A stretch of 16,611 nucleotides of DNA from a virus (UHGV-0310400), one strand, 5' to 3'. Shown: positions 1 to 9,300, numbered from the stretch's first letter. Translations and numbers: made by a program. Notes: generated by a model not told the origin, from the letters alone.

Positions 1-63
1 ACGGTTGATGAGGGCTTTATTGTAGGTGGGCCAGTTGGTGATTTTGAACTTTTGCTTTGCCAC
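1..63 (-). CDS. IS5-family (IS903-like) transposase, N-terminal fragment; partial, continues past the window start
   Basis: Minus-strand frame from a GTG at 63-61 translates as VAKQKFKITNWPTYNKALINR and stays open to position 1. This matches my recollection of the IS903 transposase N-terminus (..KQKFKITNW.TYNKALINRG..). Start codon choice is uncertain. Confidence 0.6.
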   Translation of the reverse strand, partial: MAKQKFKITNWPTYNKALINR

Positions 64-140
64 GGAACGGTCTGCGTTGTCGGGAAGATACGTGATCTGA
101 TCCTTCAACTCAGCAAAAGTTCGATTTATTCAACAAAGCC
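1..140 (-). mobile_element. Terminal segment of an IS903-group (IS5 family) insertion sequence; the element continues beyond the window start
   Basis: Minus-strand sequence reading inward from position 140 is GGCTTTGTTGAATAAATCGAACTTTTGCTGAGTTGAAGGATCAGATCACG..., which I recognise from memory as the IS903/Tn903 terminal inverted repeat and adjacent sequence, with a few substitutions. The outermost base of the inverted repeat is at 140. Not verified by alignment. Confidence 0.75.
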
Positions 141-1384
141 AAATCACCAGCAAATAATCCGTGATCAGTAATGCGAATATAAGCGACTTGCTGATTTGCT
201 GCTTTCGTTATACCACCATAAACGCGAAGGCTGCGACTCATTGGGCGATCCCACAACTCTGCAACCTGCAGTTTATTTCCTCTCACGGTCCGCGTCTCAA
301 TTACAGCAAAAAGGCGATTTCTGACAACCCCCATACTCATGCAGTGATAGTTAACTGTGGGATAGTTTTCATGTAAATCTGTAAGCCATTCCGGCGTTGT
401 CCAGGTCTTCCCGTCATCTCCTGAGCGAACCCATGCAACATGGAGGTTATTTACACCATGGCGGTCTCCAGCCATAAAAGGCGCATAGATGACATTGTCA
501 TATACAAACGTTTTATCCTGCGTCCAGGCGTTGTACCACGGTGTATCTGTAATTTTAAATAACTCTCCCTGGATAAAATCTTCAGAAGCATAAAAAAGAG
601 GCTGGCCCGGTATTCTCTCAAATAAAAAACGAGCATTTTTAAATCGACTGACATCCGGAAGAGTTGATACTTTAAAAGTAAGCCCTAATCCGTCAATTTT
701 ATAACCTGGAGATGAGGCTTCAAGGCACGCGCTTATTGCAGTGGAATCGTCATTTATACCATCACCAACAGCTCCAAAATCTTTGGGGCTAATAGCATCA
801 CGCATTTTATCCTGGAACGTTCGGTACACAGCCCCAGAACCATACTGAATAAACCAACCAAAACCACCAACAACTCCGGCGATTGCAGCATCGACATAAT
901 TACGCATTGAGCGATTATTTACAGCGTCCTGCTCAAATGATGGATCTGCAAGGTTAGAAATTTTGTTTTGCTTTGCATCGTAATATTTTGCAAGCAGAGA
1001 GGGCTTCATCAATGCACGTCTGAACCACCCAAAACATTGCTGGATCAGCATCGTCAGGTAGTCAAAGGCATCTTCATGCACTTCGGGGAAAAATTTTCCC
1101 TGATTGCGAAGGTCTGTGTCCTGCACTACATCAAGCACACGATCTATCGTAATTCGCCATCCAGTAGCAAGCGGAGACGGAAGAACCACAGAACCGCCAC
1201 TATAAGTGCCCGCCCCAGTTACCGTATAACCGGTATCCAGGACCAATTCTGTTACGTTCCCGTTCAGGTCAGACACCTGAACAACCAGGTCTGATTTTCT
1301 GAAAATTCGAAAAGTATACGGAAACGATGTCGTAACGCCGTTACCGGTGTATTCGTTGTGGTCAACTTCGGTTGAGACCGTCAT
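110..1384 (-). pseudogene. Tail fibre/tailspike gene (T7 gp17 position), 3' end truncated by IS insertion at 140/141; native sequence is 141-1384
   Basis: The 424-aa ORF has an N-terminal segment (EYTGNGVTTSFPYTF...VLDTGYTVTG...) resembling tail-attachment domains of podovirus fibres and tailspikes. It carries a DFGAVGDGINDDSTA motif (plus 758-781) typical of pectate-lyase-like beta-helix depolymerases, and an Asp-box-like SGDDGKTW (plus 401-424). The last 10 codons and the stop lie inside the IS inverted repeat (110-140). SD GGAG precedes the ATG at 1384. Confidence 0.6.
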
Positions 1385-1487
1385 GTTAAATCTCCAGATA
1401 GTCGCAGCACCCGTTGCGCCGCATATCTGGTTATTCTATTACCTGAAAAACCATATATGGATAAAAAGACTATAAATACCAATAGAT

Positions 1488-1504
1488 ATTACCTTTCGGG
1501 TAAT
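1488..1504. promoter_or_regulatory. 17-bp dyad operator-like site, copy 1 (ATTACC-TTTCG-GGTAAT)
   Basis: Perfect 6-bp inverted half-sites separated by 5 bp, in the divergent intergenic region between the tail fibre gene and the 85-aa gene. Same half-sites recur at 2608, 2701 and 3768. Confidence 0.5.
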
Positions 1505-1540
1505 TTGCAAAACGTGCTGGATAGCAAACAAATTATTTGT

Positions 1541-1560
1541 TACTGTATAAACATACAGTT
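1541..1560. promoter_or_regulatory. LexA (SOS) box
   Basis: TACTGTATAAACATACAGTT: CTGT (1543-1546), 8-nt AT-rich spacer, ACAG (1555-1558). Matches the enterobacterial LexA consensus TACTGT-N8-ACAGTA. Lies about 20 bp upstream of the SD/ATG of the 1580 gene. Confidence 0.7.
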
Positions 1561-1579
1561 ATTGCATGGAGAAGATAAG

Positions 1580-1837
1580 ATGCAGCAGTATCACTATCCA
1601 CTGGAAGACGGATTTACCGAAAGGATTCACACGCCGGGAGGCGTCAGGTCACTGGTGGAGGGATCGCACTTGATGAAATTACTCCGGGATCTCGATAAGG
1701 ATGGATTTAATGTCGATGGCCCACTTGCCGAACTGACTGCACTGATTAACTACGTCACCAGCTCACAGATGTCTATGCAGGATCTGCAAACACATCTCGA
1801 CTATTGTGCCGAACAATTACGAAAACAAACCCGGTAA
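1580..1837 (+). CDS. Small (85 aa) SOS-controlled antirepressor-like protein, paralogous to the C-terminal domain of the Bro-N antirepressor at 2986-3696
   Basis: ATG at 1580 is preceded by GGAGA (1568-1572). The track ORF from 1457 would run through the operator and LexA box, so the shorter start is preferred. Residues GVRSLVEGSHLMKLLRDLDKDGFNVDGPLAELTALINYV...DLQTHLDY align by eye with GVLGLTENSLLMNLLNQLQEDGHDVSGAAAELTTMFCYI...DIQTHAEY of the 2986 gene. Confidence 0.6.
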   Translation: MQQYHYPLEDGFTERIHTPGGVRSLVEGSHLMKLLRDLDKDGFNVDGPLAELTALINYVTSSQMSMQDLQTHLDYCAEQLRKQTR

Positions 1838-1844
1838 ATTTAAA

Positions 1845-1860
1845 GGCCGCAAGAGCGGCC
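1845..1860. terminator. Bidirectional intrinsic terminator hairpin between convergent genes
   Basis: GGCCGC-AAGA-GCGGCC perfect 6-bp GC stem, flanked by AAATTTAAA upstream and TATCGTTTCGCTTT downstream. Sits between the stop of the 1580-1837 plus gene and the stop of the 1860-2588 minus gene. Confidence 0.6.
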
Positions 1861-2588
1861 TATCGTTTCGCTTTGTGCTCGTCCCAGCACGTTTTGCACC
1901 ATGCCATTAAGCCGTCCGCATTTTGATTATTAGGGTAAAAGCTGGTCCGTTTTCTGCGGACATTACAAATTGGGCACCACTTCATATGGCGTGTATTCTT
2001 TGGGCCATCGAGGCACCTTGCACACCACTTAGTCAATCCATCTGGATTTTTTGACGATTTCCGGAATTTGTCATATGGAAGGTTTATTCTGCATCGCAAA
2101 CACTGCTTGCGGCCACTTGAAACTCTGTTAGCTGATTCTTCTTTTGGCGGCGATACAGAAGGTATTCTTGCTGGCTCTGATACTGCCTGAGGTGCTTTTT
2201 TAGATGACTGAGACGATATGTCATCACCAGGGAATCTTCCATGATATGCCGGACGCGTTGACACTCCAGGTGGAAGCTCAGCTGTAAACGGCTTTGGCTG
2301 AATCAGTTGCCTCTCTTTTGCTAACTCCTGCTGTTTATAATATGTCTGGATTACCGCACTATCATAAGCAGGAGGTACGGAAATATCAGGCGCGTTACCT
2401 CCAGTTTTTTGAAACTGAGTAGATGTGTGTTCTATCACCTGTGTACGACTAATCGTTACCTCCCCATCTTCGGTCTTTATCGTTTTGTTCTGATTAACGA
2501 CCGTACGATCAGAGATCTTAGTCTTGTTCTGGTTGATAACGTAAATAATCACCGCAACCACACCAACAACTATCCAGAAAACTTCCAT
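1860..2588 (-). CDS. Membrane-anchored protein with N-terminal TM helix, Pro/Ser-rich linker and C-terminal tandem Cys4 zinc-ribbon-like repeats; function unknown
   Basis: 242-aa ORF. N-terminus FWIVVGVVAVIIYVI is hydrophobic. C-terminus has two repeats, CLRC-x22-WCARC and CPIC-x23-WCKTC, each with DGL just before the second Cys pair. Stop codon abuts the terminator hairpin. Confidence 0.6.
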   Translation of the reverse strand: MEVFWIVVGVVAVIIYVINQNKTKISDRTVVNQNKTIKTEDGEVTISRTQVIEHTSTQFQKTGGNAPDISVPPAYDSAVIQTYYKQQELAKERQLIQPKPFTAELPPGVSTRPAYHGRFPGDDISSQSSKKAPQAVSEPARIPSVSPPKEESANRVSSGRKQCLRCRINLPYDKFRKSSKNPDGLTKWCARCLDGPKNTRHMKWCPICNVRRKRTSFYPNNQNADGLMAWCKTCWDEHKAKR

Positions 2589-2607
2589 TGCTTTTCCTCA
2601 CAATAAC

Positions 2608-2624
2608 ATTACCTTAAAGGTAAT
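2608..2624. promoter_or_regulatory. 17-bp dyad operator-like site, copy 2 (ATTACC-TTAAA-GGTAAT)
   Basis: Perfect palindrome about 20 bp upstream of the 242-aa gene start (2588, minus), in the divergent region shared with the antirepressor leader. Confidence 0.5.
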
Positions 2625-2700
2625 ATCTTGCTTTCAGGTGATCAAGCGTTAAACGCAATCAACCAAATACGGTTGATTTTAATATTTCTTCGCGTTTATC

Positions 2701-2717
2701 ATTACCTTTGCGGTAAA
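2701..2717. promoter_or_regulatory. 17-bp dyad operator-like site, copy 3 (ATTACC-TTTGC-GGTAAA)
   Basis: Same half-sites, one mismatch in the right half. Located at the start of the long leader upstream of the Bro-N antirepressor gene. Confidence 0.45.
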
Positions 2718-2751
2718 TTTACATCGCACTCCTCTTGTGCCATAGTAATCG

Positions 2752-2829
2752 GGCACTGGCAAAATCCAGTGCCGGGATTGGCGTCCCGGGTTACTAAGTG
2801 GCGCATACCACGCCAGACGTGGTTTTTTT
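2752..2829 (+). promoter_or_regulatory. Structured leader upstream of the antirepressor gene: overlapping hairpins ending in a terminator-like stem plus T7 tract; candidate attenuator or small RNA
   Basis: Hairpin GGCACTGG-caaaat-CCAGTGCC (2752-2773) overlaps hairpin CCGGGA-ttggcg-TCCCGG (2772-2789). Then CCACG-ccaga-CGTGG (2808-2822) is followed by TTTTTTT (2823-2829). An alternative pairing TGGCG (2798-2802) with CGCCA (2811-2815) competes with the terminator stem. Confidence 0.35.
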
Positions 2830-2985
2830 ATGCGTTAAGCACAGCTATATCCGAATTATGGTGGGCTGGGCAGGGGTCCGAAAGGACGCCGGTACCACTT
2901 AGGCCGGTACGCCAACCTTGTCCAGTTCACCACCAGTAATTGGCGTTGCGGTGGTGATTAAAATCACTAAGTGGAGATAACCACC

Positions 2986-3696
2986 ATGGCTAATGCTCAA
3001 ACTTCCATCTTCAAATTTGAATCTGTTAACCCTATCCGTTCCATCATTATCGATGGCCAACCATGGTTTGTAGCCCAAGACGTTTGTAGTGCGCTGCGTA
3101 TCCAAAACGTCACCCAAGCACTTGAAAAACTGGATGATGATGAAAGGTCTATGTTCAACATAGGGCATGAACATCGTGCAATTTTTGACAGCCGAGTAAA
3201 AGAGATCAACATCATCTCCGAGTCAGGCCTCTACACACTGATCCTCCGCTGCCGCGACGCAGTGACACCAGGCACTATCCCCTACCGCTTTCGTAAATGG
3301 GTTACAGGTGAGGTTCTTCCTCAGATCCGCCGCACCGGAAGCTACATTAAAAACTCGCTCCCGCAGGAAGAACGCATAAAGATGGTTGCCGACCAGGTAG
3401 CCAACGCCACGGCGTCAGCAGTAATGCAGGCGATGAAGATAGAGAACAAAACCTACAGCGCCCCACTGAAGCCCGGCTACCGTAGCCTGATTCATTCGCC
3501 GTCTGGTGTTCTCGGCCTGACGGAGAACTCACTGCTGATGAATTTGCTGAACCAGTTGCAGGAAGACGGGCACGATGTATCGGGCGCGGCGGCGGAGCTG
3601 ACAACCATGTTTTGCTACATCGTTGGTGTGAGTAAATGCCTGCGTGATATCCAGACTCACGCGGAGTACATCAACGACAAAGCAGGATTCTTCTGA
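2986..3696 (+). CDS. Phage antirepressor with N-terminal Bro-N domain
   Basis: ATG at 2986 is preceded by GGAGA (2973-2977); the track ORF from 2971 uses an upstream GTG. N-terminus IFKFESVNPIRSIIIDGQPWFVAQDVCSALRIQN matches the Bro-N signature (F.F....IR....DG.PWF.A.DV...LG). C-terminal approximately 70 aa are paralogous to the 1580-1837 product. Confidence 0.8.
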   Translation: MANAQTSIFKFESVNPIRSIIIDGQPWFVAQDVCSALRIQNVTQALEKLDDDERSMFNIGHEHRAIFDSRVKEINIISESGLYTLILRCRDAVTPGTIPYRFRKWVTGEVLPQIRRTGSYIKNSLPQEERIKMVADQVANATASAVMQAMKIENKTYSAPLKPGYRSLIHSPSGVLGLTENSLLMNLLNQLQEDGHDVSGAAAELTTMFCYIVGVSKCLRDIQTHAEYINDKAGFF

Positions 3697-3704
3697 CGGG
3701 CGGC

Positions 3705-3730
3705 GGCACAGGGATGTGCCTTTAAATAAT
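3705..3730 (+). terminator. Intrinsic terminator downstream of the antirepressor gene
   Basis: GGCACA-ggga-TGTGCC stem-loop (3705-3720) followed by TTTAAATAATT. Confidence 0.45.
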
Positions 3731-3740
3731 TCTGTACAGA

Positions 3741-3769
3741 TTGCAGACCGGGGGTGAATAGCGTACTAT
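3741..3769 (+). promoter_or_regulatory. Sigma70-like promoter for the 3810-5411 operon
   Basis: TTGCAG (3741-3746), 17-bp spacer, TACTAT (3764-3769). The -10 element overlaps operator copy 4. Confidence 0.45.
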
Positions 3770-3784
3770 TACCTTAAAGGTAAA
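3768..3784. promoter_or_regulatory. 17-bp dyad operator-like site, copy 4 (ATTACC-TTAAA-GGTAAA)
   Basis: Identical to copy 2 over 16 of 17 bp. Overlaps the -10 and predicted transcription start of the cargo operon promoter. A second small inverted repeat CATGT-gttt-ACATG (3786-3799) follows. Confidence 0.5.
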
Positions 3785-3809
3785 CCATGTGTTTACATGA
3801 GGAGGAGAT

Positions 3810-4019
3810 ATGGGATTTTGGTTCGCTCGTACAAAAACGAGGGATAATGCACCCAGCCCTCAGGCAAAAAATACAGAAGTTCCGGCGTCAGCGCAGGTTA
3901 ACAAGCGTGGTGGTGTGTATATCTCATCACAGCAAATTTCTGAGCTTCCTGAGGTTAAGGAGATGCGTCGTCTCGCTGCTGCAATCGTTAAACAGGATCT
4001 TGCCACTGTAAGGAAATAG
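3810..4019 (+). CDS. Small (69 aa) hypothetical protein, first gene of the cargo operon
   Basis: Strong SD AGGAGG (3800-3805) 4 nt before the ATG at 3810. Stop TAG overlaps the GTG start of the next gene (TAGTG). Preferred over the alternative-frame ORF 3787-4011, which lacks an RBS. Confidence 0.5.
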   Translation: MGFWFARTKTRDNAPSPQAKNTEVPASAQVNKRGGVYISSQQISELPEVKEMRRLAAAIVKQDLATVRK

Positions 4020-4882
4020 TGTTGTTAGCTCTTCTAATTATCCCCATTCTGGTTAGTGGTTATATTATGATAACCGCTAACCAGTATCATTATTTCCGTT
4101 TATACCGACATGAAGGCCAGCTTCTTTATATGAAAGTAGCTGCATTAGGTACATATTGCCTTGTTGCTTCTGTAATAATTGCCGCATTTATAAAATATAA
4201 ATATCCTGATTTTCACCTAGTTCACGATATGGTGGAAACTTTTAATGTAACGTCAAAACCAGAAACAGATAGAATTTACATGTGGCTACTTCTTCTGTCA
4301 GTCACATCAATTTGCTTCTCTTTGTGTTATGTATCTTTTGTTTGGCTAAAAGATCTTCTTTTAGGTTGTTTTTATAAACGTGATATTTATGACAAAATAT
4401 CAGAGGCAATGAAAGCTAGGGTATTGCGAAAAACGTACTCCCAGGGTTCTTTAGATTTGCTATTGCTTGATGCAATCGAATCAGATCCTAAGAAACCAAT
4501 GTTAATTACTTTATCATCAAATAAAGTATACGTTGGAATAATAAATGGTTCTGGTGAGCCAACGGAAAATCAAGGGCCACACCAACACATATCTTTTGTT
4601 CCTTTAATGTCAGGGTACAGAAACAAAGAAAATTTATCTGTTACATTTACAAACGCTTACCCAGGTGAAATCCAAATTAAGCGCAGTGCTGCGATAAAAG
4701 GGATAAGCAAAAAGAAAGTTCAAGGTCTAGAAATTATGGTATCTATAGACGAAATAAGTCATATATCATGGTTTGACTTTGAAGTATATAAGGCAACAAA
4801 TAACAAAGTAGAAACAAAGGGTCATGTTGTTAATGTGACCAAAAATGGTCGCAACATATACTACAGAAGTGGCAGGAAATAA
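4019..4882 (+). CDS. Multi-pass membrane protein (about 3 TM helices) with a soluble C-terminal domain of roughly 170 aa; AT-rich cargo gene of unknown function
   Basis: 287-aa ORF. Hydrophobic segments LLALLIIPILVSGYIMI, MKVAALGTYCLVASVIIAAFI and YMWLLLLSVTSICFSLCYVSFVWL. Base composition is visibly more AT-rich than the flanking virion genes. GTG start is coupled to the upstream stop; an internal ATG at 4067 is an alternative. Confidence 0.65.
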   Translation: MLLALLIIPILVSGYIMITANQYHYFRLYRHEGQLLYMKVAALGTYCLVASVIIAAFIKYKYPDFHLVHDMVETFNVTSKPETDRIYMWLLLLSVTSICFSLCYVSFVWLKDLLLGCFYKRDIYDKISEAMKARVLRKTYSQGSLDLLLLDAIESDPKKPMLITLSSNKVYVGIINGSGEPTENQGPHQHISFVPLMSGYRNKENLSVTFTNAYPGEIQIKRSAAIKGISKKKVQGLEIMVSIDEISHISWFDFEVYKATNNKVETKGHVVNVTKNGRNIYYRSGRK

Positions 4883-4907
4883 ATTTTACGCAGTTTAGGT
4901 GGCTTAT

Positions 4908-5411
4908 ATGGATAATACTATCTTAGGCGCATTGATAGGTGCTGTTATTGCTATAGTTTCCACTTATATAAATGCAGGACAAGGATACAAAAACAGCATA
5001 AGATTAGAGCGACAAAAAATATTAAGGGATAAACGCGAGCAATTATTTATAAATTGTATACTTACTAAAAAAGTCATAGATTCAAGCACAATTACCATTC
5101 TCAATTTCGTAAAAAATGCCAGATACCACTCTGATAGTAAATTTGACGTATCAAGAGCGAATCCGTTGCAAACGATGGAAATGCTAATAAACATATACCT
5201 TCCTGAGTATAAAAAAGACTTACAAGAACTCAATAATGCGTATCAAGAATTTCACAAATACTACTCTCAATATACATGTGCACATACCTTCAAAAATATG
5301 CCTGATAATGAGAAGTCGAGGTTTATTGAGGAGGCTGATTTTTATGCAAAAAAGATATATGGCAAACTTAATGATATTAAGGACAAGATATCATTAAACT
5401 CAATAGTATAA
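4908..5411 (+). CDS. Single-pass membrane protein (N-terminal TM helix plus soluble domain of about 140 aa); AT-rich cargo gene of unknown function
   Basis: ATG at 4908 with SD AGGTGG (4897-4902); the track ORF starts at an upstream GTG at 4899. N-terminus NTILGALIGAVIAIVSTYI is hydrophobic. Very AT-rich. Followed by a GC-rich palindrome and the terminator at 5496-5513. Confidence 0.6.
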   Translation: MDNTILGALIGAVIAIVSTYINAGQGYKNSIRLERQKILRDKREQLFINCILTKKVIDSSTITILNFVKNARYHSDSKFDVSRANPLQTMEMLINIYLPEYKKDLQELNNAYQEFHKYYSQYTCAHTFKNMPDNEKSRFIEEADFYAKKIYGKLNDIKDKISLNSIV

Positions 5412-5462
5412 CAGCGATACTGCCGCTGACGGCTCCCGCTGCGGTGGGCGTTCTGCGGATTC

Positions 5463-5474
5463 CCGCCCGGGCGG
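5463..5474. repeat. Perfect 12-bp GC palindrome CCGCCCGGGCGG inside a short GC-rich intergenic segment
   Basis: The segment from about 5415 to 5485 is strongly GC-rich between two AT-rich genes and contains this palindrome plus flanking CCGCTG/CAGCGG repeats. Confidence 0.4.
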
Positions 5475-5495
5475 CGGTGGCATTCGTTAAAAACA

Positions 5496-5513
5496 AGGCC
5501 GCGAAAGCGGCCT
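5496..5513. terminator. Bidirectional intrinsic terminator between convergent cargo genes
   Basis: AGGCCGC-gaaa-GCGGCCT 7-bp stem. On the minus strand it is followed by TTGTTTTT, on the plus strand by TGTTTGAT. Lies directly after the stop of the 5520-6371 gene. Confidence 0.6.
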
Positions 5514-5519
5514 GTTTGA

Positions 5520-6371
5520 TCACTGTGCAGTTTTCGCTGATCGATTTTCAGCTCTAAATTCAAGAACCGTTTCAATATTTCTTTCCTTCAGCATATCAAT
5601 AACATTTTTATTCATTTGACTATCACTGGTTAATAACTGGTAAACGTCGCTTCTCTCTTTATCAGAGTTTTCTTTAACAGCTGCTTTGCATGCCAAATGC
5701 TTATTGAAATTTTCTACATCGCTAGTACAGGAATTTACGGCTGCTGATGAAATATCAGACGCTGAAGAAACACCATCATCCAAACGTTTTATAGCATTTT
5801 CTATACATGAGTTAAGGGAATAAACGACAACTGAGCGATACCCTTCAGACGCACACCATTCTAAATTTCTTGAAGGATCGAGTGGTTTTACTTCGCTGGA
5901 TTGAATTAACTTGTCAAAAACTGACTTATATTCAATCTGTTTTTTATCTATAGCCCATACTTCAGTAGCTGATTTATAATTCCCCGTATGCCTATTAACA
6001 TCAAATCCATGTTTTATAAGCAAATCTGCCCATGAAAGATTTATTGATTCATTGTTATGAGGCCATTTTCCTGTCAGAACCGCCCCCATAGACCCCATAT
6101 ATCCGCCATATGATGGTATAGCACCATGGCTCAGTAACTTCTCAGCAACCACAGGGCAATTAATTACATAAGAGGCGTAAAGCCCATTCCATAAAGCCCC
6201 TCTATAGTAATCGCCACGATTAGGTTCTTTTAAGTCGATAGCCTTTGATAATTGTTCACACGTTTTGCATGCATCAAAGTTATCCTTATTGCATTGCAAT
6301 GAACTGGCAGCTGTAGGATTTACAGAGACTATTGAAAGCACTATGCCAAAAAACAAATTTATTTTTTTCAT
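5520..6371 (-). CDS. Secreted/periplasmic protein with cleavable signal peptide; AT-rich moron coupled to the last virion gene; function unknown
   Basis: 283-aa ORF. N-terminus MKKINLFFGIVLSIVSVNPTAASS is a classical Sec signal peptide. Multiple cysteines in the mature part. Start lies 2 nt from the stop of the 1129-aa gene. AT-rich relative to the virion genes. Confidence 0.65.
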   Translation of the reverse strand: MKKINLFFGIVLSIVSVNPTAASSLQCNKDNFDACKTCEQLSKAIDLKEPNRGDYYRGALWNGLYASYVINCPVVAEKLLSHGAIPSYGGYMGSMGAVLTGKWPHNNESINLSWADLLIKHGFDVNRHTGNYKSATEVWAIDKKQIEYKSVFDKLIQSSEVKPLDPSRNLEWCASEGYRSVVVYSLNSCIENAIKRLDDGVSSASDISSAAVNSCTSDVENFNKHLACKAAVKENSDKERSDVYQLLTSDSQMNKNVIDMLKERNIETVLEFRAENRSAKTAQ

Positions 6372-6372
6372 C

Positions 6373-9300
6373 CTATTTCATCTGCTCTTCAACTTTATTT
6401 AGTAATGGTGATATCGCCCACAGGTTCTGAAAAGGTAGCATTTTACGGACCGCGTGGGTTTGCTGGCTGTCAAATTCTCCGTTAAGTACACCATTCGCAA
6501 CCGTCGCGGCATCACCGCCAAGATCAAAGGTAGGACCAAGTAAAGCACCAATAGCATTACGACTCTGAAACCTTGATACCGGAGGCGCACCAAACATCGC
6601 GCCAAGACCAAACCTACCACCGCTTATGTTCTCAACGGTATTCAGCGGCTCAGAGAGCCAGCCAAGCATTCCGCCCCGGTCGATCCCCTCTTTCACAAGG
6701 TTATTCCAGCTGTAGTCAATATCGCGACCGCTTAACTTCTGTTTCATCATATAGACCATTGAGCCAAGCGCAATCGTGCCAAGCGCACCAAGATAGAATG
6801 CAGCATCGCCCTGCTGGATACCAGATACCAGCACCCTGTTATGCTGTGCGAAGATAAACGTTTTGAACTGCGTGATCATCTTCCAGCCTTCTTTACTAAA
6901 AAACAGCGGTGTATCACCTACGCCAGGCGTTACAATCACTGAGTCTACATCTTTCAGCACTGCAGACTGGAAAATCTCTCTAGCGAAACGGTCATCCCAC
7001 AGATGACTATGCCCGGTTAACAGCCCGTCCATATCCTCTCCGTGCTTCCCGAATTGCTCCCCGATTCGACGCAGAACATCTTCATTGATGCCGACCTGTG
7101 CCATCTTCCGCATTTCACTTTTGGAGAGCGTGCCACCAGCAGAAACTTGGCGAGCCGCGTCAAGTATCCTCGACTGCACTATCATCCCAGACCATGATTT
7201 AAGTGCGCTGTTCCACTGATTCATCAGCGTCCAGTTACCGAATTTCTGCGTCATCCAGTTCAGACCTCGCTCAGCGGCGCTTCTCCGGCTATAGGGGTCA
7301 GTAAGATCCGCTATAGCCTTTGTACGCGTAGACAGGACATAATCAAGCCCAACGGCCATTTCTCGCAAATCCCTGGTTGCAATTTTCACTGAGTCCATAT
7401 TTTTAAGCATGCTTACCATTGGTCCGAGAGATTTTCTCAGGCCATGCTGCATCATCGGTCGCATCAGATCAGTTGCAGCGGAGACAGTCATTCCACCAAG
7501 CAAACGGAGGAAGTTAATATTCCTAGCAACTCGCCCGGCACGAACAAAGAAACTGCGTGGATCTTGAGGTGCACCGTAAGTACCAAGCAGTCGATCACGC
7601 ATAGCCGTAATATCCCTAATATCAGCCTCCCGTTGCTTCTCAAGAACTGCACGTCGTTTAGGTGTTTTAGCCTCTTTTATTAGCCGGGTATATTCCTCAC
7701 TAACCTGACGGATTTGCTCCCCCATATCTTTACGGCCAAACTGCGCAGTCAGCTCAATTTCTGGTGCCACCTGCCGGAGATAACTTTCCATGATGTAGTT
7801 AACATCTGATTCAAGAAAATCTTCTATACGCTCATCAGGAATAAGCAGCGTTCTGCTTTTAGTGAAACCAGCCCGACCAACGAGTCTCTCTGGGATAATA
7901 TCGGCTGGTACAAGCCCGGAAGGTGCGCCTATTATTTTATTCACGATCTCGTCAGCAGCGTCCTCTGCTTCCTCTCGGGATAGAGGCTCCATCTGCTTCA
8001 GTGCTCGTTCGCGGCTTGCATTCAGCCTTGTGGTTGAATTTGCCCGTTTTTGCAGTCGGCGAAGCTCAGAACGATATTTCCGTGGATTATCCAGCAACTC
8101 CATATGGCGCTGATAGACAGGAAGCTCACTCTTTGCCTGCGCTATATCATCAAGGCGTGTTTTAAGGTCAGAGCTTTCTTTCATCATTCTTGCCTGAAGT
8201 TTTTCTGATGAAGTCTCGGCCAACTCTTTTTCTATTCTTGTAAGACGCGCCTGTGTGTCAGTCTCCTGAGATATAAGCTTATTTCGTTTATCCAGTTCTT
8301 CCATGAGTAGAATTTTTTTACCAGACCATTTCTCCGCTTCAGCGATTTCACTAGCGAGAGCATCAGCGCGCGGTGCCGATTCCTCTGCAGTTTTTAGCAA
8401 TGAATTTATCCTTTCAATTCGCTGACCTGCCTTGTCAGCACCTTTGGCACTAATCCCTTGTATCCAGTTGGCAATTCGCCCTCTGAATTCAGTGCGGTCG
8501 GAAAGTATCTTATCGAACTTATAAATGCGGGGAAGATAACTTTTCGCCGTCACGACATCGATATCCTCAGGAAGGATCCCCAGTTCCTGCATACGGGCTT
8601 TTGTGATCTCGAAAATGGGGCGGATTCTGGCGGCTGCTTGTGAAACCTCAGGAATATCACTCTGATCACCACGGCGCATGGCCATGCCAACAGCTTCATT
8701 GAAATCAATAAAGTTCATCCTCTTCACGCCGCGGGCGCTAACAGATTTGCTGTACTGCTGATAAGCATCACTAGTGGCTTCCATCTGCTTATAAAGCATG
8801 GCGTCGTATTGCTTAATCTTAGTCTCGACTGCCGTAAACGTAGCCAACCCCTCATCATTTTTGGCGAAGAAATAGTTATTTTCGGCAAGCTGCTGGTTAA
8901 TCTGACGGGAGACAAGAGATGGTGATTGCGCCAAGCGGCCAGCAGGAGTGACACTCAACGTTTTGTTAGCAAGTCCAAGTCCAGCGAGCTGTTCCTGATC
9001 GAGTGTGGTATTGAAAACCTGAGCTGCACCAATGCTTTGAGGAGAATCCATACCTCGCAAATGATTACCTACTGAGTTAACCACTGCCTCGCGCGCGCTA
9101 GGTCCAGCAAGTAGCTGTGCACCAGCACCAAGGATCCCACCAACGAGAGCATCAACAACAACGTTCGATACGCTCTCCATCGGTGAGCGAGCTTCCTGAG
9201 TGGCCTGTAATGCGGCTTCTGATACTCCCCCACCAGCAGCATTCGCCAGGGCAAAACGCCCTGCCGTCTCAGCAATACTTCCTCCACGCGCTACCGCCCC

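What the first reader, a model, noticed from the sequence alone, without database searches (positions are those of the whole stretch)
1580..3696. The 85-aa SOS gene is a stand-alone paralogue of the Bro-N antirepressor C-terminal domain
The C-terminal approximately 70 residues of the Bro-N antirepressor and most of the 85-aa protein align by eye at roughly 40% identity (GV..L.E.S.LM.LL..L..DG..V.G..AEL......YV......D.QTH..Y). Two proteins sharing one probable repressor-binding module, one with a DNA-binding Bro-N domain and SOS-independent, one minimal and LexA-controlled, could compete or cooperate on the same target.
Basis: seen in the sequence. Interest (0 to 1): 0.6.

Follow-up and report, generated by a model that had tools for sequence, protein, structure and literature searches.

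The report
Two antirepressors sharing one repressor-binding module
This epsilon15-like E. coli prophage carries the known small SOS-controlled antirepressor Ant and a second, larger antirepressor with a diverged copy of the Ant module at its C-terminus; the larger gene has no LexA site and sits behind an antisense-RNA switch and a probable repressor operator, so one repressor-binding module appears to be wired to two different signals.

Summary
The 85-aa protein (1580-1837) and the last ~75 residues of the Bro-N protein (2986-3696) align without gaps at 42% identity (E=9e-16; z=31 against shuffles).

- **Small gene.** It is 88% identical to the antirepressor Ant of Salmonella phage SPC32H (PDB 5D50) and has a strong LexA box. 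It is an already known kind.
- **Bro-N C-terminus.** It matches the same PDB chain by sequence (E=1e-14). A confident model (pLDDT 88) matches only 5D50 Ant among solved structures (TM 0.84).
- **Control of the large gene.** It has no LexA box. It lies behind a conserved cassette: a TTACC-N5-GGTAA site (probable Rep operator), an IsrK-like RNA and a C4-type antisense RNA. The C4 loops pair with the gene's ribosome-binding site and covary with their targets across seven loci.
- **Module shuffling.** In related phages the same module follows AntA, Rha or P22-Ant N-terminal domains in the same genomic slot, always beside a small ant.
- **Published test.** A homologue identical over its last 157 residues (ZX5 ORF4) lowers lysogeny when overexpressed.

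Binding of the fused module to Rep, and any competition or cooperation between the two proteins, remain untested. I rate this a new variant of a known kind, of moderate interest.

The parts
1489..1503 (.). TTACCTTTCGGGTAA, a probable Rep operator upstream of ant and of the divergent tailspike gene
   Evidence: There are 4 exact TTACC-N5-GGTAA sites in the window against 0.36 expected. The same motif clusters in the rep-cro intergenic region and beside rep in SPC32H and in the closest prophage. A site at the equivalent position precedes SPC32H ant.
1543..1558 (+). LexA (SOS) box CTGTATAAACATACAG, 21 nt upstream of the ant start codon
   Evidence: It is the only exact CTGT-N8-ACAG in the window. 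A box sits at the same position in SPC32H ant, ZX5 and L015.
1580..1837 (+). ant: 85-aa stand-alone antirepressor, orthologue of SPC32H Ant
   Evidence: phmmer against PDB hits 5d50_E 'Anti-repressor protein' at E=4.1e-47 over residues 2-84. tblastn gives 88% identity to SPC32H ant. It matches phrog_450 at 9e-48.
1844..1861 (.). GC-rich hairpin between the convergent ant and 242-aa ORF, a likely bidirectional terminator
   Evidence: Terminator-like site found.
2609..2623 (.). TTACCTTAAAGGTAA, a probable Rep operator just upstream of the minus-strand 242-aa ORF and 93 bp from the next operator
2702..2716 (.). TTACCTTTGCGGTAA, a probable Rep operator abutting the -35 of the predicted isrK promoter
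   Evidence: The distance from operator to isrK start is 51 nt in the window, in ZX5 and in L015.
2718..2746 (+). Predicted sigma-70 promoter (TTTACA, 17 nt, TG-n-CATAGT) for the isrK-C4-antirepressor transcript
   Evidence: Consensus scan, 9 of 12 matches with TG before the -10. The string TGCCATAGT is conserved just upstream of isrK in all seven loci. This is a prediction only.
2753..2829 (+). IsrK-like RNA with its own terminator; it carries the decoy sites a1 (TTGGCGT, 2778-2784) and b1 (CTAAGTGG, 2794-2801)
   Evidence: Rfam RF01394 isrK scores 67.7 bits against a gathering score of 50, and RF03163 c4-a1b1 overlaps it at 2740-2792. The terminator is at 2807-2823 followed by a T run. Complementarity to C4 is shown.
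2854..2937 (+). C4-type antisense RNA; loop b' is CCACTTAG (2895-2902) and single-stranded a' is ACGCCAA (2909-2915)
   Evidence: Rfam RF01695 C4 scores 66 bits against a gathering score of 45. Three-way covariation across 7 loci is.
2940..2974 (+). C4 target sites a2 (TTGGCGT, 2940-2946) and b2 (CTAAGTGG, 2967-2974); b2 overlaps the Shine-Dalgarno GGAG of the Bro-N gene
2986..3696 (+). Gene for the 236-aa Bro-N antirepressor ('Bro-Ant')
   Evidence: ORF. RefSeq annotates the identical protein with this start. It is 82% identical overall, and 100% over the last 157 residues, to ZX5 ORF4, which was tested by overexpression (PMC9782041).
3034..3321 (+). Bro-N domain
   Evidence: Pfam PF02498, E=1e-19, 71.4 bits against a cut-off of 25.6.
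3442..3687 (+). Ant-like C-terminal module (Ant')
   Evidence: BLASTP to the window's own Ant gives 42% identity at E=9e-16. It matches phrog_450 at 4e-36 and PDB 5d50_E at E=1.2e-14. The AF2 model has pLDDT 88.2, and Foldseek places it on 5d50_E with TM 0.84 and rmsd 1.1 A.
3769..3783 (.). TTACCTTAAAGGTAA, a probable Rep operator upstream of the next operon (3810-5411)

Best explanation
The window comes from an epsilon15/phiV10-like (Uetakevirus) prophage of E. coli. Its lysogeny repressor is a Rep-family protein encoded outside the window. The region holds two antirepressors built on one Rep-binding, tetramer-forming module.

(1) ant (1580-1837) is the orthologue of SPC32H Ant. LexA sits on its promoter. 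DNA damage removes LexA, Ant is made, and by analogy with the 5D50 complex an Ant tetramer takes Rep tetramers apart and off the DNA.

(2) Bro-Ant (2986-3696) carries a diverged copy of the same module at its C-terminus, behind a Bro-N domain and a helical linker. It has no LexA box. Its transcript starts at an isrK promoter abutted by a probable Rep operator. Its ribosome-binding site is masked by a C4-type antisense RNA processed from the same transcript. The short IsrK RNA carries decoy sites for C4.

The most likely working is as follows. In a lysogen, Rep and C4 keep Bro-Ant off. Once Rep is lifted, either by SOS-made Ant or in a cell without Rep, the cassette fires, IsrK titrates C4 and Bro-Ant is translated. 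It then attacks Rep-family repressors. This would make it a positive-feedback latch on induction, or a P1/P22-style anti-immunity weapon against related prophages, or both.

Shown here: the homology, the fold, the LexA box, the RNA elements and their covarying pairing, and the conserved cassette and slot. Shown by others: Ant-Rep binding and LexA control in SPC32H, the pro-lytic effect of ZX5 ORF4, and IsrK activation of a downstream antirepressor in Gifsy-1. Inferred: that the fused module binds Rep, that TTACC-N5-GGTAA is the Rep operator, and the order of events.
For: **Homology and fold**
- Ant against the Bro-N C-terminus: 42% identity, no gaps, E=9e-16, z about 31.
- Small Ant against 5D50 Ant: E=4e-47. 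Bro-N C-terminus against 5D50 Ant: E=1.2e-14.
- The AF2 model of the C-terminal module (pLDDT 88.2) matches only 5d50_E and 5d50_G in the PDB, at TM 0.84/0.83 and probability 1.00.
- phrog_450 matches both proteins.

**Link between the module and Rep**
- All 34 phage records with the module also appear in the Rep tblastn hit list (37 records).
- The closest prophage, with identical Ant and Bro-Ant, encodes a Rep 41% identical to SPC32H Rep.

**The module is the constant part**
- It is found behind Bro-N, AntA, Phage_pRha, ORF6N and P22_AR_N domains.
- The contexts examined (Bro-N, AntA and pRha forms; ORF6N not examined) lie in the same slot beside a small ant.
- TL-2011b has three copies.
- A natural in-frame hybrid has an N-terminal half like small Ant and a C-terminal half like Ant'. 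It sits at the ant locus with a degenerate LexA-like box (ATGT-N8-ACAG).

**Control of the large gene**
- isrK and C4 score above Rfam gathering thresholds.
- The C4 loops are complementary to a1/b1 and a2/b2, with b2 on the Shine-Dalgarno sequence.
- There are three a-types and three b-types with matching changes at all three positions across 7 loci, giving 5 combinations.
- The cassette precedes the Ant'-module gene in every locus where one was identified.
- There is no LexA-like box near it.

**Operator**
- The motif occurs 4 times against 0.36 expected.
- It forms a tripartite cluster spaced 17 and 30/31 bp in the rep-cro intergenic region of both SPC32H and the E. coli prophage.
- It lies 51 nt upstream of the isrK start in three loci.

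**Function**
- Overexpressing ZX5 ORF4, which is identical over the last 157 residues, cut prophage titre from 1e9 to 1e6 and rep mRNA by 75% (PMC9782041).
- Short IsrK activates translation of the downstream antirepressor AnrP in Gifsy-1 (PMC4825925).
- SPC32H Ant is described as a tetramer that binds two Rep dimers and breaks the Rep tetramer (PMC9638917).
Against: - There is no direct evidence that the fused module binds Rep. It differs from small Ant at 58% of positions, and I could not map the 5D50 interface residues.
- The full-length AF2 model was unusable (pLDDT 45.6), so the geometry of a fused tetramer is unknown.
- Bro-Ant is dispensable. It is frameshifted in phiV10 and absent from PAS61, and both carry the same Rep.
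- The ZX5 experiment is a plasmid overexpression during infection. It does not show which domain acts or what the target is.
- Small Ant is 88% conserved between phages whose Reps are only 41% identical, so pairing specificity is not understood.
- The identity of TTACC-N5-GGTAA as the Rep operator rests on its position only. I could not read the primary SPC32H papers.
- The Rep gene of the window's own genome is not in the window.
Confidence: 0.62

Rival explanations
1. The shared module serves in the large protein only as an oligomerisation (tetramerisation) domain. The Bro-N domain is the active part, binding DNA or another target, and the large protein does not touch Rep.
For: SPC32H Ant is a tetramer, so the module does carry an assembly function. 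Bro-N, AntA, Rha and KilA-N-like domains are generally regarded as the DNA-binding parts of such proteins (my own knowledge: Iyer, Koonin and Aravind 2002). The module's sequence has diverged to 42% identity.
Against: The N-terminal domain is the interchangeable part, with five kinds seen, while the module stays constant. The module is confined to a small family: 61 clusters among 1.84 billion representatives. All 34 phage records that carry it also have a Rep-family repressor. Polar positions conserved across the whole family (Y4, S29, E51, H72 in Ant numbering) are kept in the fused copies. In TL-2011b the module stands where P22 Ant has its own C-terminal domain (by my recollection of P22 Ant; not compared here), in a phage whose repressor is Rep-type.
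Confidence: 0.17
2. The large protein modulates the small one. Because both share a tetramer-forming module they co-assemble into mixed tetramers. Bro-Ant would then damp or retarget SOS-made Ant, acting as a competitor or anti-antirepressor rather than as an independent antirepressor.
For: The two have the same fold. A natural hybrid of the two halves exists, so the halves are structurally compatible within one chain. The two genes are kept adjacent in many phages.
Against: Overexpressing the near-identical ZX5 ORF4 pushed the phage away from lysogeny, the opposite of what a damper would do. With 42% identity, mixed tetramers are uncertain. No assembly data exist either way.
Confidence: 0.1
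3. The fused module is aimed at other repressors rather than the phage's own. It would be a trans-acting weapon against the Rep variants of co-resident or superinfected Uetakevirus-like prophages, with a specificity different from that of small Ant.
For: Identity of the Ant' module falls with Rep identity across genera: 100/100, 77/78 and 53/45%. Small Ant stays at 88% where Rep is 42%. The diversified C4 specificities resemble the P1/P7 immI heteroimmunity logic (my own knowledge). phiV10 annotators called the gene 'putative anti-immunity protein'. Trans-acting antirepressors between prophages are documented (PMC3121763, listed).
Against: All E. coli members share one Rep at 98% identity or more, so there is little Rep diversity to target in this host. 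The apparent tracking rests on only three comparisons and may simply reflect host phylogeny and mosaic recombination. This reading overlaps with the best explanation rather than excluding it.
Confidence: 0.11

Closest known systems
Ant of Salmonella phage SPC32H (Kim and Ryu 2013, J Virol; Kim et al. 2016, PNAS; PDB 5D50)
   Same: The 85-aa gene is its orthologue. It is 88% identical, sits in the same position next to the tailspike gene, has a LexA box over the promoter and a Rep-type operator upstream. The C-terminal module of the Bro-N protein has the same fold.
   Different: SPC32H and the other Salmonella members have only the small gene. Here a second copy of the module is fused behind a Bro-N domain, has no LexA box and is under RNA control. 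The cognate Rep in the E. coli lineage is only 41% identical to SPC32H Rep.
ORF4 anti-repressor of E. coli phage vB_EcoP_ZX5 (PMC9782041)
   Same: It is the same gene family in the same slot. It is 82% identical overall and 100% over the last 157 residues, including the whole Ant' module. It has the same isrK and C4 elements upstream. Overexpression lowers lysogeny.
   Different: The Bro-N subtype differs. The paper describes only the Bro-N domain and does not mention SPC32H or LexA (no occurrences of either term in its text), nor, in the passages I read, the C-terminal homology, the small ant gene or the RNAs.
P1/P7 immI region (c4 antisense RNA, icd, ant)
   Same: A C4-family RNA is processed from the same transcript as the antirepressor. 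Paired a1/b1 decoy sites and a2/b2 target sites are present, with b2 on the ribosome-binding site. Specificity types are diversified, and a repressor operator sits at the promoter. The P1 details are from my own knowledge.
   Different: There is no icd-like leader gene; the antirepressor ORF follows the targets directly. The repressor is Rep-type rather than C1, and the effector domain is the Ant module rather than P1 Ant.
Gifsy-1 isrK-orf45-anrP locus of Salmonella (PMC4825925)
   Same: An IsrK RNA with a leaky terminator is followed by a processed stable RNA and an antirepressor-like gene whose translation is activated by short IsrK. The Rfam isrK model matches here at 67.7 bits.
   Different: It sits in a different phage type and a different antirepressor context. 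No link to an SOS-controlled paralogue is described there.
P22 immI (arc, sar RNA, ant)
   Same: It is an antirepressor region beside the tailspike gene in a podovirus. The relative TL-2011b carries an Arc-like gene, a sar RNA and a P22_AR_N protein.
   Different: The window has no Arc, Mnt or sar. In TL-2011b the Ant' module occupies the C-terminus of the P22_AR_N protein, at 92% identity to the window's Ant' module.
Domain shuffling in Bro-N/KilA-N/Rha-type phage regulators (Iyer, Koonin and Aravind 2002; my own knowledge)
   Same: Interchangeable N-terminal domains are joined to various C-terminal domains.
   Different: Here one such C-terminal domain is identified with a structurally solved, stand-alone repressor-binding protein. 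This assigns the effector role to the C-terminal part.

Membership tests
SPC32H-type Ant (small LexA-controlled antirepressor) | Sequence homology to SPC32H Ant (PDB 5D50 chains E-H) | tested here: met
   The small protein scores E=4.1e-47 at 88% identity. The Bro-N C-terminal module scores E=1.2e-14 at about 38-40% identity.
SPC32H-type Ant (small LexA-controlled antirepressor) | Ant fold | tested here: met
   The AF2 model of residues 149-236 of the large protein (pLDDT 88.2) matches 5d50_E at TM 0.84 and rmsd 1.1 A. There are no other PDB hits with E below 1. The small protein was not modelled; at 88% identity to the crystal chain this was unnecessary.
SPC32H-type Ant (small LexA-controlled antirepressor) | LexA box at the promoter | tested here: met
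   Met for the 85-aa gene, with a box at 1543-1558. NOT met for the Bro-N gene, which has no box even with one mismatch allowed.
SPC32H-type Ant (small LexA-controlled antirepressor) | Stand-alone protein of about 85 aa | tested here: met
   Met for the small gene. NOT met for the Bro-N protein (236 aa, module at residues ~153-234). The large protein is therefore a fusion variant and not a member in the strict sense.
SPC32H-type Ant (small LexA-controlled antirepressor) | Cognate Rep-family repressor in the same genome | tested here: inconclusive
   Rep is not inside the window. The closest full prophage, with identical Ant and Bro-Ant, has a Rep homologue. All 34 phage records with the module also have one.
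SPC32H-type Ant (small LexA-controlled antirepressor) | Forms a tetramer that binds Rep and releases it from DNA | not testable with these tools
   This needs biochemistry or a multimer prediction. It is known for SPC32H Ant only (5D50).
Bro-N domain proteins | Pfam PF02498 match above the gathering score | tested here: met
   71.4 bits against a cut-off of 25.6, residues 22-117 of the 241-aa translation.
C4/IsrK-controlled antirepressor cassette (P1 immI type) | C4-family RNA upstream of the antirepressor on the same strand | tested here: met
   RF01695 scores 66 bits (gathering 45) at 2854-2937, and RF01394 isrK scores 67.7 bits (gathering 50) at 2753-2829.
C4/IsrK-controlled antirepressor cassette (P1 immI type) | Two C4 loops complementary to upstream (a1/b1) and downstream (a2/b2) sites, with b2 over the ribosome-binding site | tested here: met
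   Exact 7- and 8-nt complementarities are present, and b2 (2967-2974) overlaps GGAG.
C4/IsrK-controlled antirepressor cassette (P1 immI type) | Pairing maintained by compensatory change | tested here: met
   Three a-types and three b-types change together at the loop, decoy and target positions in 7 loci. The one imperfect case is b1 in Tyrion, which was not detected as an exact complement.
C4/IsrK-controlled antirepressor cassette (P1 immI type) | Leader ORF (icd or orf45) translationally coupled to ant | tested here: not met
   Only 48 nt separate C4 from the ATG at 2986, and no ORF lies between them.
C4/IsrK-controlled antirepressor cassette (P1 immI type) | Promoter controlled by the phage's main repressor | tested here: inconclusive
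   A TTACC-N5-GGTAA site abuts the predicted -35. Assigning that motif to Rep rests on its position.
P22 Ant | P22_AR_N and P22_AR_C domains under Arc, Mnt and sar control | tested here: not met
   Neither window protein has these Pfam hits. They are present only in the relative TL-2011b, where the C-terminus is the Ant' module.

The most novel reading that the evidence does not exclude
In Uetakevirus-like temperate phages a single, structurally defined Rep-disassembling module is deployed under up to three separate control circuits. These are LexA for the stand-alone form, Rep operator plus the IsrK/C4 RNA switch for forms fused to Bro-N, AntA or Rha domains, and Arc plus sar for the P22_AR_N fusion. 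This would make a multi-input lysis-lysogeny switch. The small form would be the SOS trigger. The large forms would act as a Rep-gated positive-feedback latch and, through diversified C4 specificities, as heteroimmune anti-immunity weapons. The two forms might also co-assemble into mixed tetramers.
Probability: 0.3. Interest if true: 0.65.

Novelty: new variant of a known kind. Interest (0 to 1): 0.45.

Why it matters
It gives a concrete structural hypothesis for a large, poorly understood class of 'Bro-N/BRO-like anti-repressors' in Enterobacteriaceae prophages, which run to hundreds of near-identical members. The hypothesis is that the C-terminal ~80 residues are the repressor-targeting part, homologous to the crystallised SPC32H Ant, and that the N-terminal domain is exchangeable. 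It would also explain the pro-lytic activity reported for ZX5 ORF4, whose mechanism that paper left open.

The region shows how one effector module can be connected to different inputs: DNA damage, repressor level with an RNA switch, and Arc with sar. This arrangement is directly testable in a simple phage with a solved repressor-antirepressor complex.

It is not a new principle. Antirepressors, LexA control, C4/IsrK switches and domain shuffling are each already known.

Tried and rejected
1. **Full-length AF2 model.** A model of the Bro-N protein from a 27-sequence alignment gave pLDDT 45.6 and was discarded. Only the C-terminal module was modelled usefully.
2. **Primary SPC32H papers.** The J Virol 2013 and PNAS 2016 papers are not held. 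The Ant-Rep interface residues and the published operator sequence could therefore not be checked. Statements about them rest on my memory of the abstracts and on a secondary citation.
3. **Curated families.** Pfam and NCBIfam have no family for the Ant module. The DUF724 hit at 17.6 bits is below threshold and was ignored.
4. **First word-indexed homologue search.** The search with the C-terminal module returned only 27 proteins, many of them fragments or internal-Met calls such as the 95-aa 'MPAILEAMK...' proteins. One of these (P0009) lies at the edge of a degraded prophage with about 1 kb of uncalled DNA upstream. I did not treat it as proof of a second stand-alone lineage.
5. **Weak LexA boxes near the Bro-N cassette.** None were found.
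6. **Defence-system models (PADLOC).** There were no hits for the neighbouring ORFs.
7. **Exact source genome.** No complete E. coli genome covers 80% or more of the first 6.4 kb. The best covers 73% at 99.5% identity, so the window is a mosaic not present as such in that collection.
8. **Recent tandem duplication.** I considered and rejected this. The two copies share 42% amino-acid identity, and the module occurs behind several N-terminal domain types, which points to old divergence and shuffling.


Full report
**1. What is at the coordinates**

The window is part of an epsilon15/phiV10-like (Uetakevirus) temperate podovirus of E. coli. The region 1400-3900 is 91-97% identical in pieces to phages TL-2011b, HEMP4, ZX5 and phiV10. 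The gene order matches SPC32H and epsilon15: tail and injection genes, an accessory slot, ant, then the divergent tailspike. The tailspike here has an endosialidase-type head.

The 85-aa ORF runs from ATG 1580 to the stop at 1837. The Bro-N ORF ends at 3696. Its mechanical start is GTG 2971, but ATG 2986 behind GGAG is the likely start, and RefSeq uses it for the identical protein.

**2.

- BLASTP of the two proteins gives 31/74 identities (42%), no gaps, E=9e-16.
- The Smith-Waterman score is 161, against 26.7 +/- 4.3 for 2000 shuffles, so z is about 31.
- The other criterion, unrelated structures, is not met either. An AlphaFold2 model of the C-terminal 88 residues from a 23-sequence alignment has pLDDT 88.2. 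Its only meaningful PDB matches are chains E and G of 5D50, at TM 0.84/0.83 and rmsd 1.1/1.7 A; the next hits have E above 7.
- AlphaFold's training data probably included 5D50 (my own knowledge), so this supports the sequence result rather than being independent of it.

**3. The small gene is a known thing**

It matches the 'Anti-repressor protein' chain of 5D50, the Rep-Ant complex of Salmonella phage SPC32H, at E=4e-47 and 88% identity. A strong LexA box (tACTGTATAAACATACAGt, 1543-1558) lies 21 nt upstream of the ATG, at the same place as in SPC32H.

From my own knowledge of Kim and Ryu 2013 and Kim et al. 2016, which I could not open:
- SPC32H Rep is not RecA-cleaved.
- It is inactivated by Ant, whose promoter is LexA-repressed.
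- Tetrameric Ant binds the C-terminal domains of two Rep dimers and dismantles the DNA-bound Rep tetramer.

A held paper summarises the last point in the same terms (PMC9638917).

**4. The large gene**

Pfam finds Bro-N at residues 22-117 and nothing further on. The C-terminal 88 residues hit 5d50_E directly at E=1.2e-14. PHROGs already groups the two implicitly: phrog_450, labelled 'unknown function', matches the small protein at 9e-48 and the Bro-N C-terminus at 4e-36. Pfam and NCBIfam have no model for the module.

The full-length family is large in Enterobacteriaceae. There are 6165 hits with E of 1e-5 or lower, most of them probably through the Bro-N domain. The best 120 listed (70-99% identical over about the full length) come from E. 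coli, Salmonella, Citrobacter, Enterobacter and related genera, and carry names such as 'BRO-like protein' or 'anti-repressor protein'.

**5. How the large gene is controlled**

There is no LexA-like box anywhere near it. Rfam instead finds three elements on the same strand, directly upstream:
- an isrK RNA at 2753-2829 (67.7 bits, gathering score 50);
- the c4-a1b1 target element overlapping it;
- a C4 antisense RNA at 2854-2937 (66 bits, gathering score 45).

The C4 hairpin loop CCACTTAG and the single-stranded ACGCCAA are exactly complementary to two pairs of sites. One pair is CTAAGTGG and TTGGCGT inside IsrK (b1, a1). The other is the same two sequences between C4 and the start codon (b2, a2). 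Site b2 (2967-2974) overlaps the Shine-Dalgarno GGAG.

The same isrK-C4 cassette precedes the Ant'-module gene in TL-2011b, ZX5, Tyrion, a Klebsiella phage and two metagenomic or Logan prophages. Across these seven loci the pairing covaries three ways:

| Element | Type 1 | Type 2 | Type 3 |
|---|---|---|---|
| a' loop | ACGCCAA | AGACCAA | GTGCAAA |
| b' loop | CCACTTAG | CCTTTTAG | CCTTTGTAG |

Each type has matching changes in both its decoy and its target, giving five combinations. This is strong comparative evidence that C4 really gates translation of this gene, and that specificity is diversifying as in the P1/P7 immI system (my own knowledge). In Gifsy-1, short IsrK activates translation of the downstream antirepressor-like AnrP on the read-through transcript, and a stable processed RNA lies between them (PMC4825925).

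**6. A probable Rep operator**

TTACC-N5-GGTAA occurs four times in the window, at 1489, 2609, 2702 and 3769, against 0.36 expected.
- In SPC32H the motif forms a tripartite cluster in the rep-cro intergenic region (34390, 34407, 34437), a second cluster just beyond rep, and one site upstream of ant.
- The closest full E. coli prophage has the same tripartite layout, spaced 17 and 31 bp, and a pair beyond rep.
- In the window, site 2702-2716 abuts the -35 of the predicted isrK promoter (TTTACA, 17 nt, TG-n-CATAGT). It lies 51 nt from the isrK start, as it does in ZX5 and L015.

I infer that Rep represses the cassette. This rests on position only and needs a footprint.

**7. Is the module tied to Rep?**

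- Rep is not in the window. In E. coli CUVET20-PYO2, whose Ant and Bro-Ant are identical to the window's, the prophage next to guaA encodes a 194-aa Rep. It is 98% identical to TL-2011b gp10 and 41% to SPC32H Rep.
- In the phage collection 34 records carry the module and 37 carry a Rep-family hit. All 34 module-bearing records are among the 37.
- A profile search of 1.84 billion representatives found only 61 clusters, so the family is small and lineage-restricted.

**8. The module is the constant part and the N-terminus is swapped**

Longer family members carry the module C-terminal to AntA, Bro-N, Phage_pRha or ORF6N domains. The AntA and pRha versions sit in the same slot, behind isrK-C4 and beside a small ant.

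TL-2011b has three copies:
- small Ant;
- Bro-Ant;
- gp42, a P22_AR_N protein preceded by an Arc-like gene and a sar RNA, whose last 88 residues are 92% identical to the window's Ant' module.

Within the Bro-N family, several Bro-N subtypes and two linker types are joined to the same module.

A natural 84-aa hybrid (P0020) has the N-terminal half of small Ant and the C-terminal half of Ant'. It sits at the ant locus with a Rep-type site and a LexA-like box. It looks like an in-frame deletion between the two paralogues.

**9. Functional evidence from others**

ZX5 ORF4 is 82% identical to the window's protein overall and 100% identical from residue 80 to the end. When overexpressed during infection it lowered prophage copies from 1e9 to 1e6 per mL and rep mRNA by 75% (PMC9782041). 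That paper describes only the Bro-N domain. Its text contains no occurrence of SPC32H or LexA, and the passages I read do not mention the C-terminal homology.

**10. Most likely mechanism, and its limits**

- The small Ant is the SOS trigger.
- Bro-Ant is a second, Rep-directed antirepressor kept silent in the lysogen by Rep at its promoter and by C4 at its ribosome-binding site.
- It is released when Rep falls and IsrK outnumbers C4.
- That would make it a feed-forward latch on induction, a P1/P22-style anti-immunity function, or both.

Points against or unknown:
- There is no binding data for the fused module.
- 58% of positions differ from small Ant.
- The gene is dispensable: it is frameshifted in phiV10 and absent in PAS61, and both have the same Rep.
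- Small Ant is 88% conserved between phages whose Reps are 41% identical, which is not explained.

Three rivals remain open and are scored separately: the module as an oligomerisation domain only, mixed tetramers that modulate Ant, and specificity for foreign Reps.

**11. Comparison and novelty**

The small gene is already known. The large gene belongs to a known, annotated and partly tested class. The isrK/C4 switch is a known kind.

What I did not find in the 8 million papers I could search:
- the identification of the Bro-N antirepressor's C-terminus with the crystallised Ant fold;
- the conserved pairing of a LexA-controlled stand-alone copy with an RNA- and Rep-gated fused copy;
- the extension to other N-terminal domains and to a third, Arc/sar-controlled copy.

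The primary SPC32H papers, which mention 'numerous Ant homologues' by my recollection of the abstract, could not be checked. I rate this a new variant of a known kind, with interest about 0.45.

Noticed in passing
window 1489-1503, 2609-2623, 2702-2716, 3769-3783: There are four exact TTACC-N5-GGTAA palindromes against 0.36 expected, each at the head of a transcription unit. The same motif forms tripartite clusters at rep-cro in SPC32H and in the closest E. coli prophage, and marks many other operon starts. This suggests a P1-like dispersed operator network for Rep.
   Followed up: partly
window 2753-2937, with L001, L010, L011, L012, L013 and L015: The C4 antisense RNA loops covary three ways with their decoy (IsrK) and target (RBS) sites. 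There are three a-types and three b-types in five combinations across seven loci, which implies several immI-like specificity classes in Uetakevirus-like prophages.
   Followed up: yes
L008 (TL-2011b) 31060-32244: This is a third Ant-module gene in a relative. A P22_AR_N domain protein has a C-terminal 88 aa that is 92% identical to the window's Ant' module. It is preceded by an Arc-like gene and a sar antisense RNA.
   Followed up: partly
L007 4001-4255 (protein P0020): A natural 84-aa hybrid antirepressor has an N-terminal half like small Ant and a C-terminal half like the fused module. It sits at the ant locus beside the tailspike with a degenerate LexA-like box, and is probably an in-frame deletion between the paralogues.
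   Followed up: partly
window 1860-2588 (minus strand): A 242-aa ORF lies between the two antirepressor genes. It has an N-terminal transmembrane segment and two C-terminal Cys-rich motifs resembling endonuclease VII, Stc1 or zinc ribbons (phrog_6762, unknown function). It is preceded by an operator-like site, is absent from ZX5 and is annotated only as a similarity feature in TL-2011b.
   Followed up: no
window 3810-5411 (plus strand): An operon of three ORFs of unknown function (69, 287 and 170 aa; the 287-aa product starts with hydrophobic segments) lies behind an operator-like site. The same slot holds a YafO toxin module in TL-2011b and other cargo in ZX5. There were no PADLOC hits, so this may be a moron or exclusion slot.
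   Followed up: partly
window 5520-6371 (minus strand): A 283-aa protein with an apparent signal peptide (phrog_6118, unknown function) sits between the accessory slot and the large injection or tail genes.
   Followed up: no
window 110-1384 (minus strand) and the whole of 1-6400: The tailspike N-terminus is epsilon15-type and is joined to an endosialidase-type catalytic part, which suggests K1 capsule specificity. No complete E. coli genome in the collection covers 80% or more of the first 6.4 kb, so the window is a mosaic of modules found separately.
   Followed up: partly
L003 (SPC32H) compared with L009 (E. coli prophage): Small Ant is 88% identical between phages whose Rep repressors are only 41% identical. 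The fused module's identity falls roughly in step with Rep across genera (100/100, 77/78, 53/45%). This is unexplained and may reflect recombination or different binding constraints.
   Followed up: partly
L002 (phiV10) 3751-4430: The phiV10 Bro-N antirepressor gene is split by a frameshift inside the Ant' module (p23 plus p22). The well-studied phiV10 therefore probably lacks a functional large antirepressor.
   Followed up: partly
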